In this document: one piece after another, positions 12,620 through 15,531 of the stretch
How the letters are laid out: every line of letters starts with the position of its first letter
How positions within the stretch are numbered: position 1 is the stretch's first letter
Assembly (NCBI GenBank): GCA_033239445.1
Contig: GCA_033239445.1_3953.1
Origin: a phage
DNA length: 64,000 bases
Direction: 5' to 3' (one strand)
Program-made: the position numbers and the translations under genes
Notes under the pieces: generated by a model
Database searches by the model: none
Told to the model about the DNA's origin: nothing
What the model saw: only the letters and a program-made list of their open reading frames with translations

Positions 12620-13040
12620 AGAGACAGTACGCAAAGCTATGCTTAACAACGGTACTAAAGATGATATGTACAAAGATATCGTTGCAGAACTTGGTTGCTC
12701 AAGACATGCTGCAAAGGTTCTTCTCCATAGCTTTATCTGGGAGTGTTCAGAAGCTTACATGCAATCTGTAATAACTGAAGGGCTTGATATGTCTCTACCT
12801 GAACGCTTCAAAGAAGAGACTAAGGCTAGTTCCATAAAGCTAAACACACTCTATATTGTAGAAACCGTTGATACAGGTGAACCAGTAGGCACAATACATA
12901 TTGAAAGTATGTGTGATGGTAAGTTCCTCGGTTATGGTGAAGCAAACGCATATAGTGCATTCTCAACCGCACACTGGATAGTTGAAAATGATGGGTATAT
13001 TCAGGTCAATGGTAAAAATACTTTCAAACTTAAGATGTGA
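12606..13040 (+). CDS. hypothetical protein
   Basis: ORF-track frame 12555-13040 trimmed to ATG at 12606. Confidence 0.45.
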   Translation: MKNVKETVRKAMLNNGTKDDMYKDIVAELGCSRHAAKVLLHSFIWECSEAYMQSVITEGLDMSLPERFKEETKASSIKLNTLYIVETVDTGEPVGTIHIESMCDGKFLGYGEANAYSAFSTAHWIVENDGYIQVNGKNTFKLKM

Positions 13041-13708
13041 TTATGGGACACCTACTGAAGAAGAGTTGGAAGAACTTAACAGATATGGTTCCCCATCTGA
13101 AGAGGAAGAGAAAGAACTCCGAAGAATGGGAAGCAATTACTAAGAAATGCTTTAAGGATTTGATAGAGATGAAAAAGTTTAAACTTGAAAGAAAGTATCT
13201 GGTACTTAGCCTAGATGATATCAACACACATCTTGATGAAAGTGAGAAGTGGTCTTTAGACTTACTTGTTAATCGACTTAAGATGGAACGAGAAGATTCA
13301 GGTAAAGAGCCACTTGAAGGTGTCTTTGTCAAGAAGTCTTATCCGTTCTTTGAAGATACTTTGAAGAAACTTGAGATGTATGTTAAGCAGCAGAACCGTA
13401 AAGAGTTCTCTATGATTTCTCTTGGTGGACAACAAATGCTGGTTATGGAAGATATAAACCCTAAGAGAACCAACAAAGGTGTTTGTATCAAGGTCACAGG
13501 TAAAGAAGAATTTGTTGAATATGACATACTCAGACACATTATAGATGGTTTGGGTGTTGTACTGAACATGAATGAATACCATATTAGTTCACACCCGATT
13601 AAGGGTGACCAGATAATGATTCAGGTAAGAGAACGGCATAATGGGTTCACACACTTCTTCCAGACTTCTAAAACTTCATTGCAAGCCATGCTTAGTGAAT
13701 TGATGTAA
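13037..13708 (+). CDS. hypothetical protein
   Basis: 223 aa ORF; last gene of the plus block. Confidence 0.55.
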   Translation: MIMGHLLKKSWKNLTDMVPHLKRKRKNSEEWEAITKKCFKDLIEMKKFKLERKYLVLSLDDINTHLDESEKWSLDLLVNRLKMEREDSGKEPLEGVFVKKSYPFFEDTLKKLEMYVKQQNRKEFSMISLGGQQMLVMEDINPKRTNKGVCIKVTGKEEFVEYDILRHIIDGLGVVLNMNEYHISSHPIKGDQIMIQVRERHNGFTHFFQTSKTSLQAMLSELM

Positions 13709-13716
13709 GACTATAC

Positions 13717-13740
13717 AGCCCCTTAATTGGGGCTTTTTAT
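13717..13740 (+). terminator. rho-independent terminator
   Basis: agcccc-ttaatt-ggggct hairpin followed by TTTTTATT. Confidence 0.6.
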
Positions 13741-15224
13741 TGAGTAAAATTTACGAAATTTATAATTTTTATAAAATTTGGGATTCACTCCGTTCATCTT
13801 GGGTCACCATGATATGTGATAAAATATCTATACCCTTCTAAACACCCTCTCTAAGCATCATCTCTATATAGTATTATATAGTATTATATAGTATCTATAT
13901 AGCCTCTTAGTCCCTAAATAGTGCTCTCTATATAGCCCTCTATAAAGCCTTCTAAGCCTACCATTAATCAACCCTATACAATCACCTTCCTAACCTCTTC
14001 CTAGCCCCTTAGAAGCCCCTATACTCATCTTAATCTCTAGGTAAACGATAGTACCCTATATAGCAGAATCACTAGGTATTACTAAGCCTCTATATAGACT
14101 GTTATATAGCACTAAACAGGTATTCCCTGTAAAGGCTTATCCTACAAGGTCTAACACGGTACTAACAAGGTCTCTTATAAGCCTGTTAATTCCTGTTTTA
14201 TATAAGATAGTGTATAGATAGTTATTCAGAATTATAAAATTTTTATAAAATAGACTAGGTAGGTTACTTTTTAGGGTCTTTGGAGAATCTGAAAAATATC
14301 TACAGAGGATGTATATCTGCTTGGTAGCCCTTAACAGCCCTGTAACATCCCCTTTGCAAAATCTTAAAATATCATTAACAATCTCTTAACAACTCTTCCA
14401 AGTCCTTAACATCTCTCCAGAGTTCTTAACAGTCTCTTAACAGAACTAACAAGAGCTTAACAAGTCTGTAACATTACTAACAAGAGTCTAACAAGTTGCT
14501 TATAAGTTGCTAAATAGTTAAATCTTAAGAGTTATTTTGTTAAGATAATTAACAAGTTCTAAACCTTTTTAACAAGCTATTAACATGGTCACTATCTCTT
14601 GGTCTATAGTTCCTTATCCTTTCTTAGTGATTCTCTATAAAGCCCTGTATAGCTCTGTATAGCCTCTTCTAAGATTCTCCCTAGTAACTACACCCCAACT
14701 ACCTGTATAGCTCTTTGTAGGGCTTTCTAGGGGCTTATACAGGGACTTCAAAGAGTCTAACAAGCTCTTAACATACCACTAACAAGGATTTAACAAGGGG
14801 CTAACAAGCATAACTATGTTGCATTTGTTAAGATTTTGTTAAGAGAATGTAAAGGGGGCTAACTTTTACGTTACTTTTAAGCTCTTTTTAGACTCCATAA
14901 CATACTTTGAAGTAACTATCAAGCCCCTGTTTAACCATTCACAAGATTCTATCCAGCTTATAAGCTTATACCCTTATAAGATTCTTTTAAGGCTCTAGAA
15001 AGCTCTATAAAGGGTTTTTAAGAAGTGGTTAATATGATTGCTTAAGATGAGATGATAAGCCCGTATAGAGCGTTATAGAGCGTTTTAGGGATTGCCCTTC
15101 CCTTTCGGGTTATGGGCTTATATTTAAGTTGATTTGATAAGAGGATATAGAGTAAGCTATAGAGTTATTATTCTAAATGTATGGGATAGATTCTAGGAAG
15201 GTTTCTTTATAGACGTAAAAAGCC
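13741..15224. repeat. 1.5-kb non-coding region rich in short direct repeats (tattatatag x3, CTGTATAGC copies, about 15 YTAACAAG copies, tatagagcgt x2)
   Basis: No ORF of 60 aa or more on either strand; lies between the 3-prime ends of convergent gene blocks. Confidence 0.6.
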
Positions 15225-15250
15225 CCATCTAAGGGGCTGTAAAGGTGTCT
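15225..15250 (-). terminator. rho-independent terminator (minus strand)
   Basis: On the minus strand agcccc-ttagat-ggggct followed by TTTTTA. Confidence 0.55.
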
Positions 15251-15279
15251 GGGGCTATTTGCCCCGTTGCGGCGACTTG

Positions 15280-15531
15280 TTAGTTATTGAAGCCGTCAAC
15301 TTCATAGTAAAGCGTGATAAGAGAATCACCCCAATAGTAAGAGGATTTACCATCCTTTAAGACTTCTTGTTTTACTTCTTTCCAGAACCACTCAGATTGA
15401 TTGTAGTCCTGAATAGTTGCTTTTAGACACATATCAACCATGCCAAAAACATCGCCAGTTCCAACCATATCAAATTTAACATCTAATACATGGAAGCCAA
15501 AATTGTTAACAGTTGCGTGGATAGTAGCCAT
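15280..15531 (-). CDS. small hypothetical protein (small-gene array)
   Basis: 83 aa; ATG preceded by conserved leader CCTAAACTGGAGAATCTGAAA with SD GGAGA. Confidence 0.55.
   Translation of the reverse strand: MATIHATVNNFGFHVLDVKFDMVGTGDVFGMVDMCLKATIQDYNQSEWFWKEVKQEVLKDGKSSYYWGDSLITLYYEVDGFNN

What the first reader, a model, noticed from the sequence alone, without database searches (positions are those of the whole stretch)
13709..15279. 1.6-kb gene-free region with several families of short iterated motifs
Between the convergent 3-prime ends of two gene blocks there is no ORF of 60 aa or more. The region holds tattatatag x3 (13861-13900), several CTGTATAGC copies (about 14640-14725), about 15 copies of YTAACAAG (14340-14810) and tatagagcgt x2 (15060-15080). 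Iteron-like density in a convergent zone suggests a replication origin, a packaging or partition site, or a cluster of protein-binding sites rather than plain terminators.
Basis: seen in the sequence. Interest (0 to 1): 0.6.

Follow-up and report, generated by a model that had tools for sequence, protein, structure and literature searches.

The report
Phage genome ends: terminal repeat region
The gene-free stretch is where the two physical ends of this Felix O1-like (Mooglevirus) phage chromosome meet in the assembly: a ~537-bp direct terminal repeat and its flanks, all built from short motifs spaced one DNA turn apart. This feature is already known in relatives, so it is real and functional but largely ordinary.

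Summary
Window 13709-15279 has no ORF of 60 aa or more. It lies between convergent genes with mirrored terminators. It is packed with short motifs far beyond chance (3-mer autocorrelation z=16-17 at lag 11).

The window is a Mooglevirus (Ounavirinae) phage, 92-94% identical to Shigella phages Sf13-Sf18. In relatives whose records carry exact duplicates at both ends, the duplicate maps to window 14323-14859. These are HP1 (570 bp), D4 (581), ZX4221 (591), ECP2307 (592) and the distant Erwinia phage M7 (444). The boundary sequences are nearly invariant. The terminal repeat of UAB_Phi87, determined experimentally, aligns end to end with window 14321-14850.

So the region is a collapsed concatemer junction: a short exact direct terminal repeat (DTR) plus flanks. 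The YTAACAAG array sits inside the repeat. The CTATATAG-type arrays sit in the flanks. Repeat lengths and indels change in steps of about 11 bp. The non-coding DNA is better conserved than the neighbouring genes.

T7 shows the same kind of anatomy (160-bp repeat, CCTAAAG arrays).

The arrays are most likely phased protein-binding sites for end recognition and packaging, but this is inferred. An origin role is not excluded. Verdict: new member of a known kind, modest interest.

The parts
13711..13739 (+). Intrinsic terminator closing the upstream (+) gene block. It is an inverted copy of the terminator at 15216-15244.
   Evidence: Hairpin AGCCCCTTAATTGGGGCT followed by TTTTATT. 29-nt inverted repeat, 90% (I1).
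13756..13779 (+). AT box 1: a 24-nt pure A/T tract containing AATTTTTATAAAAT. Function unknown (promoter-like -10, unwinding element or bend).
   Evidence: One of only three A/T-only runs of 18 nt or more in 64 kb. The 14-mer occurs only here and at 14238. It overlaps a weak sigma-70-like match at 13750-13777. Fully conserved in HP1 and D4. Predicted curved.
13860..14210 (.). Left-flank array, next to the right end of the unique genome. About 30 degenerate 10-11-bp units with quasi-palindromic cores CTATATAG / CTNTANAG / CTTATAAG.
   Evidence: Motif positions. Autocorrelation z=7.0 at lag 10 and 5.1 at lag 11. 73-98% identical to relatives.
14230..14252 (+). AT box 2: a 23-nt pure A/T tract, second copy of AATTTTTATAAAAT, 71 bp before the repeat boundary.
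   Evidence: (D12). Conserved in all aligned relatives.
14294..14322 (+). Conserved sequence just outside the left repeat boundary (ATATCTAC...GATGTATATCTGCTT).
   Evidence: GATGTATATCTGCTT is nearly invariant in 14 phages of three genera (HP1 and SUSP2 have GGTG). TGTATATCTAC is kept in Erwinia phage M7.
14323..14859 (+). Predicted direct terminal repeat (DTR), 537 bp, present once here because the assembly collapsed the two end copies. Boundary uncertainty: left 14321-14324, right 14851-14862.
   Evidence: Exact terminal duplicates of HP1 (570 bp), D4 (581), ZX4221 (591) and ECP2307 (592) map to 14323..14859. The UAB_69 annotated DTR maps to 14321..14861. The query 14323-14859 matches the terminal segments of E9, I14.1, H12 and KMM2. 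The experimental UAB_Phi87 DTR aligns to 14321-14850.
14332..14493 (+). TAACA(A/G) array A inside the DTR: 12 same-strand units, mostly 9-11 bp apart with some 20- and 33-bp gaps.
   Evidence: Positions. Lag-11 z=16.2. TAACA cores are 97% conserved against 80% for other DTR positions.
14515..14590 (.). Highly conserved central block of the DTR, with TTAAC motifs in both orientations (CTTAAGAGTTATTTTGTTAAGATAATTAACAAG...TTAACAAGCTATTAACATGGTCAC).
   Evidence: 90-98% column conservation across 13 relatives. Alignment.
14633..14745 (.). CTGTATAGC / CTNTANAG block inside the DTR.
   Evidence: Copies at 14635, 14645, 14655 and 14703. Family D1.
14758..14808 (+). TAACA(A/T) array B: five units at exactly 11-bp spacing (14758, 14769, 14780, 14791, 14802).
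14823..14859 (-). Right end of the DTR: two reversed units (TTGTTAAG x2), then AATGTAAAGGGGGC up to the boundary.
   Evidence: TGTTA at 14826 and 14837. TTGTTAAGARAATGTWAAGGGGGC is nearly invariant in 14 phages.
14860..15215 (.). Right flank, next to the left end of the unique genome: TTTACGTTAC just outside the boundary, CTTATAAG x2, TATAGAGCGT x2 (15064, 15074) and other 10-11-bp phased units.
   Evidence: Lag 10/11 z=5.1/3.6. 76-94% identical to relatives.
15088..15165 (.). The most conserved block of the right flank (GGGATTGCCCTTCCCTTTCGGGTTATGGGCTTATATTTAAGTTGATTTGATAAGAGGATATAGAG). Function unknown.
   Evidence: 93-97% column conservation. The predicted hairpin is not significant (z -0.95 and -1.9).
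15216..15244 (-). Intrinsic terminator closing the downstream (-) gene block.
   Evidence: 15238-15221, then TTTTACG. I1.

Best explanation
The region is the collapsed concatemer junction of a linear, non-permuted Ounavirinae (Mooglevirus) genome. Window ~14323-14859 is the short exact direct terminal repeat (DTR) that is present at both ends of virion DNA. 13740-14322 is the non-coding right end of the unique sequence. 14860-15215 is its non-coding left end.

During packaging, terminase cuts replicated concatemers at the two conserved boundary sequences (...GTATATCTGCTT|GGTAGCCC... and ...AAGGGGGC|TAAC...). The repeat is duplicated so that each virion carries a copy at each end, as in T7-type phages.

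The whole ~1.4 kb is a degenerate array of 10-11-bp units: TAACA(A/G) inside the repeat and CTATAKAG-type units in the flanks. I infer that these place many weak sites for one or more phage DNA-binding proteins on one face of the helix. Such a protein could be the end-recognition component of the packaging machinery.

What is shown: homology of the region to relatives' terminal repeats, conserved boundaries, motif enrichment, 11-bp phasing, unit-wise evolution, and purifying selection. What is inferred: that this particular phage has the same ends, the cutting and duplication mechanism, and the protein-binding role of the arrays.
For: Identity of the phage: 92-94% identical over the whole region to Shigella phages Sf13-Sf18, with 256 related records.

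Ends in relatives:
- Many records start or stop inside this region.
- Exact terminal duplicates exist in ECP2307 (592 bp), ZX4221 (591 bp), HP1 (570 bp, annotated repeat_region at both ends), D4 (581 bp) and Erwinia phage M7 (444 bp).
- The duplicates of the first four map to window 14323..14859 and the UAB_69 annotated DTR to 14321..14861. M7's boundaries are homologous, within 2-3 nt.
- The predicted repeat alone matches the terminal segments of E9, D4, I14.1, H12 and HP1 end to end.

Experiment: the UAB_Phi87 DTR was found by Bal31 digestion and run-off sequencing. Its printed sequence aligns to window 14321-14850 at 84% identity.

Published predictions and reports in the subfamily: PhageTerm DTRs of 581 bp (Pr103Blw), an unsized DTR call for the Philippine coliphage set that includes D4 and E9, 613 bp (Ro111lw) and short DTRs in Kolesnikvirus. 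HP1 is described as having 'direct repeats at both termini'.

Boundary sequences are nearly invariant in 14 phages.

Selection: the non-coding DNA is 73-84% identical to Felixounavirus, against 64-66% for both flanking genes. TAACA cores are 97% conserved against 80% for other repeat positions.

Phasing and unit evolution: lag-11 z=16. Repeat lengths are 537, 569/570, 581, 591/592 and 614. 67 of 86 indels of 4 nt or more lie within 1 nt of a multiple of 11.

The architecture is conserved in the distant genus Kolesnikvirus, with different flank motifs. The T7 concatemer junction, analysed the same way, shows a 160-bp repeat with 13 CCTAAAG copies and a 13-bp period at z=22.
Against: - No read-level or virion-DNA evidence exists for this phage itself. 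The window holds a single copy, so the ends are assigned by homology.
- The predicted repeat is 33 bp shorter than in the nearest relatives. This could be real unit loss or assembly collapse.
- No binding protein is identified. Felix O1 is reported to lack a recognisable small terminase. The terminase gene was not among the ORFs screened in the window, and the genes flanking the region have unknown function.
- Wedge-model curvature of the arrays is at background level, so the arrays have no predicted architectural role of their own.
- The similarity between the two repeat ends in inverted orientation exceeds shuffles only in Mooglevirus-like phages.
- Motif conservation is partly inflated, because aligners match repeats to repeats.
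Confidence: 0.8

Rival explanations
1. The arrays plus the two pure A/T tracts form, or overlap, a replication origin: iteron-like repeats bind an initiator and the A/T tracts melt. The terminal repeat would then be both end and origin.
For: Dense same-strand repeats lie next to two of the window's three A/T-only runs of 18 nt or more (13756-13779 and 14230-14252). The region is strongly conserved. Cumulative GC skew has a local maximum here.
Against: The skew change simply tracks the switch of coding strand at the convergent genes. The units are 10-11 bp with 5-8-nt cores, not typical 17-22-bp iterons. There are no DnaA, IHF or Fis consensus sites. The flanking genes match only families of unknown function, none annotated as initiators. 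Every boundary of the best-conserved segment coincides with a physical genome end, which packaging already explains.
Confidence: 0.15
2. The arrays bind a phage or host protein for a purpose other than packaging. Examples are protecting the ends, controlling DNA ejection (like the repeat-rich injection-stop region of T5), or promoting end-to-end recombination into concatemers.
For: The motifs lie at and inside both physical ends. 11-bp phasing puts the sites on one helix face. Flank motifs differ between genera while the architecture persists, as expected for co-evolution with a phage protein.
Against: No protein is identified and no host-factor consensus is present. Nothing here separates this reading from terminase recognition.
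Confidence: 0.15
3. The arrays are functionless filler: slippage-prone simple sequence between two terminators. Only the two cut sites matter.
For: Indels are whole 11-bp units, as replication slippage would give. Unit number varies between phages (repeat length 444-614 bp).
Against: The non-coding DNA is more conserved than both flanking genes. TAACA cores are 97% conserved. The strand bias (20 + against 3 -) and the architecture are kept across four genera.
Confidence: 0.08
4. The region is transcribed and acts through non-coding RNA or as a promoter cluster.
For: There is a weak sigma-70-like match at 13750-13777 overlapping AT box 1. T7 has promoters in its end regions.
Against: No Rfam match at E up to 1. 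Promoter-like sites are not enriched (5 found, 6.5 expected). Local folds are not significant or not conserved. Terminators on both sides block entry from the flanking operons.
Confidence: 0.05

Closest known systems
Short exact direct terminal repeats of Felix O1-like phages (Ounavirinae): UAB_Phi87 608 bp, Pr103Blw 581 bp, Ro111lw 613 bp, vB_CbrM_HP1 570 bp, Erwinia phage M7 444 bp
   Same: The sequence is homologous (77-95% identity over the repeat). The position is the same, between the same convergent genes. The boundary sequences are the same.
   Different: The predicted repeat here is 537 bp, the shortest of the Escherichia/Shigella/Salmonella/Citrobacter group and 33 bp (three units) shorter than the nearest relatives. 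The ends of this phage and of its closest relatives Sf13-Sf18 are not annotated. The 11-bp array structure did not come up in the passages I searched in these papers.
Bacteriophage T7 concatemer junction: a 160-bp terminal repeat flanked by arrays of short repeats (called SRL and SRR in the T7 literature; the names are from my own knowledge)
   Same: A short exact terminal repeat sits in a non-coding stretch that holds arrays of a short same-strand motif. Here T7 shows 13 CCTAAAG copies within about 450 bp, with strong periodicity next to the repeat (z=22).
   Different: There is no sequence similarity. The T7 unit is 13 bp rather than 10-11 bp. T7's densest CCTAAAG array lies just outside the repeat (10 of 13 copies flank it), whereas here the main array is inside. 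The region here is about three times longer. T7 has promoters in its end regions, and none is evident here. T7 is a podovirus with a known small terminase (own knowledge). Felix O1 is reported to have none.
Iteron-type origins and plasmid centromeres with phased 10-11-bp repeats (for example R1 parC; own knowledge)
   Same: Many direct repeats lie about one helical turn apart next to A/T-rich DNA.
   Different: No initiator or partition gene is annotated next to the region. There are no DnaA or IHF sites. The phage is lytic, and the conserved segment is bounded by genome ends.

Membership tests
Short exact direct terminal repeat (T7-type, non-permuted) genome end | The same sequence is present at both ends of the virion DNA. 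| not testable with these tools
   This needs reads or virion DNA of this phage. The window has one copy. In relatives the feature is met: exact duplicates at both record ends in HP1, D4, ECP2307, ZX4221 and M7.
Short exact direct terminal repeat (T7-type, non-permuted) genome end | The segment is homologous to a terminal repeat defined experimentally in a relative. | tested here: met
   The UAB_Phi87 DTR (Bal31 plus run-off sequencing) aligns end to end with window 14321-14850 at 84% identity.
Short exact direct terminal repeat (T7-type, non-permuted) genome end | Fixed, sequence-specific boundaries are conserved among relatives. | tested here: met
   Independent records agree on boundaries to within 2-3 nt. 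The boundary sequences are nearly invariant in 14 phages and recognisable in Kolesnikvirus.
Short exact direct terminal repeat (T7-type, non-permuted) genome end | The large terminase belongs to a short-DTR clade. | not tested
   The terminase gene was not among the ORFs screened in the window. The literature places the UAB_Phi87 and Felix O1 large terminases in a DTR group of their own.
T7-like arrays of short repeats at the concatemer junction | Arrays of a short same-strand motif lie in the non-coding DNA at or next to the terminal repeat. | tested here: met
   Window. T7 analysed the same way. This is an analogy only, since there is no sequence homology.
Iteron-type replication origin | Direct repeats of about 17-22 bp lie beside an initiator gene. 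| tested here: not met
   Units are 10-11 bp. Flanking genes match only PHROGs of unknown function.
Iteron-type replication origin | An A/T-rich unwinding element lies next to the repeats. | tested here: met
   Two pure A/T tracts of 23-24 nt at 13756-13779 and 14230-14252.
Iteron-type replication origin | Host-factor sites (DnaA boxes, IHF) are present, or autonomous replication is shown. | tested here: not met
   No strict DnaA, IHF or Fis consensus in the region. Replication itself cannot be tested here.
Partition centromere (parC/parS type) | Adjacent partition ATPase and adaptor genes in a plasmid or prophage lifestyle. | tested here: not met
   Neighbouring ORFs match only families of unknown function, none annotated as partition proteins. 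Relatives are virulent phages.
Headful (pac) packaging site | Circularly permuted ends with imprecise cuts. | tested here: not met
   Relatives have exact repeats with fixed boundaries. Bal31 degraded two discrete fragments in UAB_Phi87.
Known non-coding RNA family | A match to an Rfam covariance model. | tested here: not met
   No match at E up to 1 on either strand of 13500-15500.

The most novel reading that the evidence does not exclude
The phased 11-bp arrays form a dedicated nucleoprotein platform. TAACA units fill the terminal repeat and genus-specific units fill both flanks. An unidentified phage protein coats or wraps about 1.4 kb of end DNA and marks it for a terminase that has no recognisable small subunit. 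This would be a new mode of end recognition, and it might also act as the replication origin.
Probability: 0.2. Interest if true: 0.55.

Novelty: new member of a known kind. Interest (0 to 1): 0.3.

Why it matters
Practical value. The result gives the true chromosome ends for this phage and for its close relatives Sf13-Sf18, whose records show no annotated feature in this region. That allows correct genome orientation. It flags as doubtful the small 'hypothetical proteins' that some records call inside the region. It also helps anyone engineering these phages, which are studied for therapy and biocontrol.

Biological value. The region shows that a non-coding end module of about 1.4 kb is conserved across four Ounavirinae genera. 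The module evolves by gain and loss of 11-bp units and is under stronger constraint than the neighbouring genes. The lineage has no identified small terminase. The arrays are therefore a concrete, testable lead to how these phages recognise their ends.

Tried and rejected
- Non-coding RNA: the Rfam scan of 13500-15500 found nothing at E up to 1.
- Promoters: sigma-70-like sites are not enriched (5 found, 6.5 expected).
- Host-factor sites: no strict IHF, DnaA or Fis consensus in the region.
- Intrinsic curvature: two wedge models give background values for the arrays (repeat mean 9.0 against window median 8.8). Only the two A/T boxes are predicted curved. The parameters were recalled from memory, so this is a soft negative.
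- Hairpin across the right repeat boundary: it appears in this window (z=-2.2), but the consensus fold over eight relatives does not keep that hairpin. Rejected.
- Terminal inverted repeat (first 50 nt against the reverse complement of the last 50 nt of the repeat): above shuffles only in most Mooglevirus-like phages and phiSUSP1, not in Felixounavirus. I did not rely on it.
- Second copy of the repeat in the window: none.
- UAB_Phi87 GenBank record ends: the record is opened elsewhere. I used the sequence printed in the paper's supplement instead.
- Flanking gene functions: all match PHROG families of unknown function. The large ORFs I scanned are nucleotide-metabolism and replication genes, not terminase.
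- GC skew as an origin marker: it follows coding strand, so it is uninformative.
Full report
**1. The observation**

Window 13709-15279 contains no ORF of 60 aa or more. The longest are 33-42 aa with TTG starts. The gene at 13037-13708 (+) and the gene at 15280-15531 (-) converge on the region. Each is followed by an intrinsic terminator (13717-13734 on +, 15238-15221 on -). The two terminators are inverted copies of one another (29 nt, 90%).

- TATTATATAG occurs twice exactly, with related CTATATAG copies beside it.
- CTGTATAGC occurs three times.
- TATAGAGCGT occurs twice.
- YTAACAAG occurs ten times exactly in 14340-14810. The TAACA core occurs 20 times on the + strand, against three on the - strand within the repeat.

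Eleven of the window's 17 + strand YTAACAAG copies lie in this 2.5% of the sequence.

The 3-mer autocorrelation against dinucleotide shuffles peaks at lags 10-11. It gives z=16.2 in 14323-14859, z=7.0 and 5.1 in the left part, and z=5.1 and 3.6 in the right part. Thirty control segments elsewhere in the window reach at most 3.6.

**2. What the sequence is**

The region is 92-94% identical to Shigella phages Sf13-Sf18 (Mooglevirus, subfamily Ounavirinae). It has recognisable homologues in 256 phage records from Escherichia, Salmonella, Shigella and Citrobacter.

The decisive clue came from where relatives' records begin and end. Many start or stop inside this region, and Salmonella phage UAB_69 annotates a 618-bp 'DTR' there. 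Fetching both ends of such records showed exact terminal duplicates:
- 592 bp in ECP2307 and 591 bp in ZX4221
- 570 bp in the Mooglevirus vB_CbrM_HP1, annotated as repeat_region at both ends
- 581 bp in vB_EcoM_D4

In multiple alignments the duplicates of these four map to window 14323 on the left and 14859 on the right, and the UAB_69 DTR annotation maps to 14321 and 14861. The left boundary reads ...GTATATCTGCTT|GGTAGCCCTTAACA.... The right boundary reads ...AATGTAAAGGGGGC|TAAC.... Used alone as a query, 14323-14859 matches the terminal 570-581 bp of HP1, E9, D4, I14.1 and H12 from first to last base.

**3. Link to experiment**

Bardina et al. 2016 showed by Bal31 digestion and run-off sequencing that UAB_Phi87, a Felixounavirus, has non-permuted ends with a 608-bp direct terminal repeat. 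They print the repeat sequence in their supplement. Its reverse complement aligns end to end with window 14321-14850 at 84% identity.

Other reports in the subfamily agree:
- PhageTerm predicted a 581-bp repeat in Pr103Blw.
- PhageTerm predicted direct terminal repeats, size not given, for the Philippine coliphage set that includes D4, E9, I14.1 and H12.
- PhageTerm predicted a 613-bp repeat in Ro111lw.
- PhageTerm suggested short repeats in Kolesnikvirus phages.
- Direct repeats at both termini are reported for HP1.
- The Felix O1 paper already suspected short terminal repeats.

The gene-free region is therefore the place where the two physical ends of the linear chromosome are joined in a collapsed assembly. 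It consists of right-end non-coding DNA (13740-14322), one copy of the terminal repeat (about 14323-14859, 537 bp), and left-end non-coding DNA (14860-15215).

**4. Anatomy and evolution**

Inside the repeat there are five parts:
- a same-strand TAACA(A/G) array (14332-14493)
- a very conserved central block with TTAAC motifs in both orientations (14515-14590)
- a CTGTATAGC block (14633-14745)
- five TAACA(A/T) units at exactly 11-bp spacing (14758-14808)
- two reversed units just before the right boundary (14823-14859)

The flanks use other quasi-palindromic cores (CTATATAG, CTNTANAG, CTTATAAG, TATAGAGCGT) at the same 10-11-bp spacing.

Two pure A/T tracts of 23-24 nt share the 14-mer AATTTTTATAAAAT and lie at 13756-13779 and 14230-14252. 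The 14-mer occurs nowhere else in the window. These are two of only three A/T-only runs of 18 nt or more in 64 kb.

Across 13 relatives from three genera:
- The boundary sequences are nearly invariant.
- TAACA cores are 97% conserved against 80% for other repeat positions. Aligners favour matching repeats to repeats, so this figure is somewhat inflated.
- The non-coding DNA is 73-84% identical to Felixounavirus, while both flanking genes are only 64-66% identical.
- Repeat lengths fall into a series: 537, 569/570, 581, 591/592 and 614 bp.
- 67 of 86 indels of 4 nt or more lie within 1 nt of a multiple of 11, and only 22 are multiples of 3.

The DNA is therefore non-coding, evolves by gain and loss of whole units, and is under purifying selection.

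The much more distant Erwinia phage M7 (Kolesnikvirus) has an exact 444-bp terminal duplicate. Its boundaries are homologous, and its repeat has the same 11-bp TAACA phasing (z=15.5). Its flank motifs differ (CTTAGAAG and CTGAGAAG). The architecture is thus a feature of the subfamily, with genus-specific flank motifs.

**5. How it most likely works**

By homology, and by the known biology of short-DTR phages, replication yields concatemers in which genome units are joined through a single copy of the repeat. Terminase cuts at the two conserved boundaries. The repeat is duplicated during packaging so that each virion has a copy at both ends. The cutting and duplication steps are inferred from the T7-type model, which I cite from my own knowledge and from Casjens and Gilcrease as quoted. 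They are not shown for this phage.

For the arrays, I infer phased binding sites for one or more phage proteins that recognise or organise the ends. One unit per helical turn puts all sites on one face. The cores are conserved while the spacers drift. The flank motifs change between genera, as expected for co-evolution with a protein.

Intrinsic bending does not explain the arrays. Two wedge models give background curvature for them, and only the A/T boxes stand out (parameters recalled from memory).

No partner protein can be named. Felix O1 is reported to lack a recognisable small terminase. The genes flanking the region have unknown function, and no terminase gene was among the ORFs screened in the window.

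**6. Rival explanations**

- A replication origin is not excluded, because repeats lie next to A/T tracts. However, the units are too short for typical iterons, no DnaA, IHF or Fis sites are present, the flanking genes match no annotated initiator family, and the GC-skew change only mirrors the coding strand.
- Roles in end protection, ejection control or recombination cannot be separated from packaging recognition with these data.
- The 'functionless slippage filler' reading conflicts with the conservation figures.
- The 'non-coding RNA or promoter cluster' reading has no support.

**7. Comparison with known systems**

The region is a member of the short-DTR end regions of Felix O1-like phages. 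Homology, position and boundaries were all tested and met. The one defining feature that cannot be tested here is the presence of the repeat at both ends of this phage's own virion DNA.

It works like the T7 concatemer junction. Analysed with the same scripts, T7 has a 160-bp exact repeat and 13 CCTAAAG copies around it, with a 13-bp period at z=22. There is no sequence relationship. The unit length, the array position relative to the repeat, and the overall size all differ.

It is not an iteron origin, a partition centromere or a headful pac site by the features tested.

**8. Novelty and verdict**

The existence and location of the terminal repeat are already known for relatives. For this phage and its closest relatives (Sf13-Sf18) the records show no annotated feature in this region. 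The 11-bp quantised array structure did not come up in the passages I searched in the papers I read. I rate it a new member of a known kind, with modest interest (0.3).

The most novel reading still open is that the arrays are a platform for an unidentified end-recognition protein in a lineage without a known small terminase, possibly combined with an origin. I give this about 0.2 probability.

In passing, I noticed that GATC is completely absent from the 64-kb window, against about 243 copies expected.

Noticed in passing
window 1-64000: GATC does not occur at all in the 64-kb window, against about 243 copies expected from a second-order Markov model. Several 6-bp palindromes are also missing or rare: CTGCAG 0 against 19, ATGCAT 0 against 15.5, GAATTC 1 against 13. 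This looks like genome-wide avoidance of restriction or Dam/MutH/SeqA sites.
   Followed up: partly
window 14323-14859, with the gap against Sf16 near 14625: The predicted terminal repeat is 537 bp, 33 bp (three 11-bp units) shorter than in the nearest relatives (570 bp in Sf16, Michonne, Moogle and HP1). Against Sf16 the difference is one 32-nt gap near 14625. This could be real unit loss or a short-read assembly collapse in the repeats.
   Followed up: partly
window 13711-13739 and 15216-15244: The two intrinsic terminators that bracket the region are inverted copies of each other (29 nt, 90% complementary). The whole end module is thus framed by a matched terminator pair.
   Followed up: partly
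window 13756-13779 and 14230-14252: Two pure A/T tracts share AATTTTTATAAAAT, which is found nowhere else in the window. Both are on the same strand, both lie in the left flank, and both are conserved in relatives and predicted curved. Their role is unexplained (promoter, unwinding element or protein site).
   Followed up: partly
window 15088-15165: This is the most conserved block of the right flank (93-97% across 13 relatives). It includes a small GC hairpin (GCCCTTCCCTTTCGGGTTATGGGC) that is not statistically significant as an RNA fold. Function unknown.
   Followed up: partly
L001 1896-2191 (UAB_69 gp027/028); L017 815-1015 (Michonne gp111); L021 636-845 (M7 gp001/002); ESh19-22 records: Several relatives' records annotate small 'hypothetical proteins' inside the homologous non-coding region, including inside the terminal repeat. 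Indels here are multiples of about 11 nt rather than 3, so these calls are probably spurious.
   Followed up: partly
L021/L022 (Erwinia phage M7, NC_041978), junction flanks: In Kolesnikvirus the flanks of the terminal repeat use other phased motifs (CTTAGAAG on one side, CTGAGAAG and CTTAACA on the other) while the repeat keeps TAACA units. This suggests at least two separate recognition specificities within the end module.
   Followed up: no
and one search hit lists: One record whose organism name begins with 'Staphylococcus' matches this enterobacterial-phage region. It is probably a mislabelled or mixed record. I did not inspect it.
   Followed up: no
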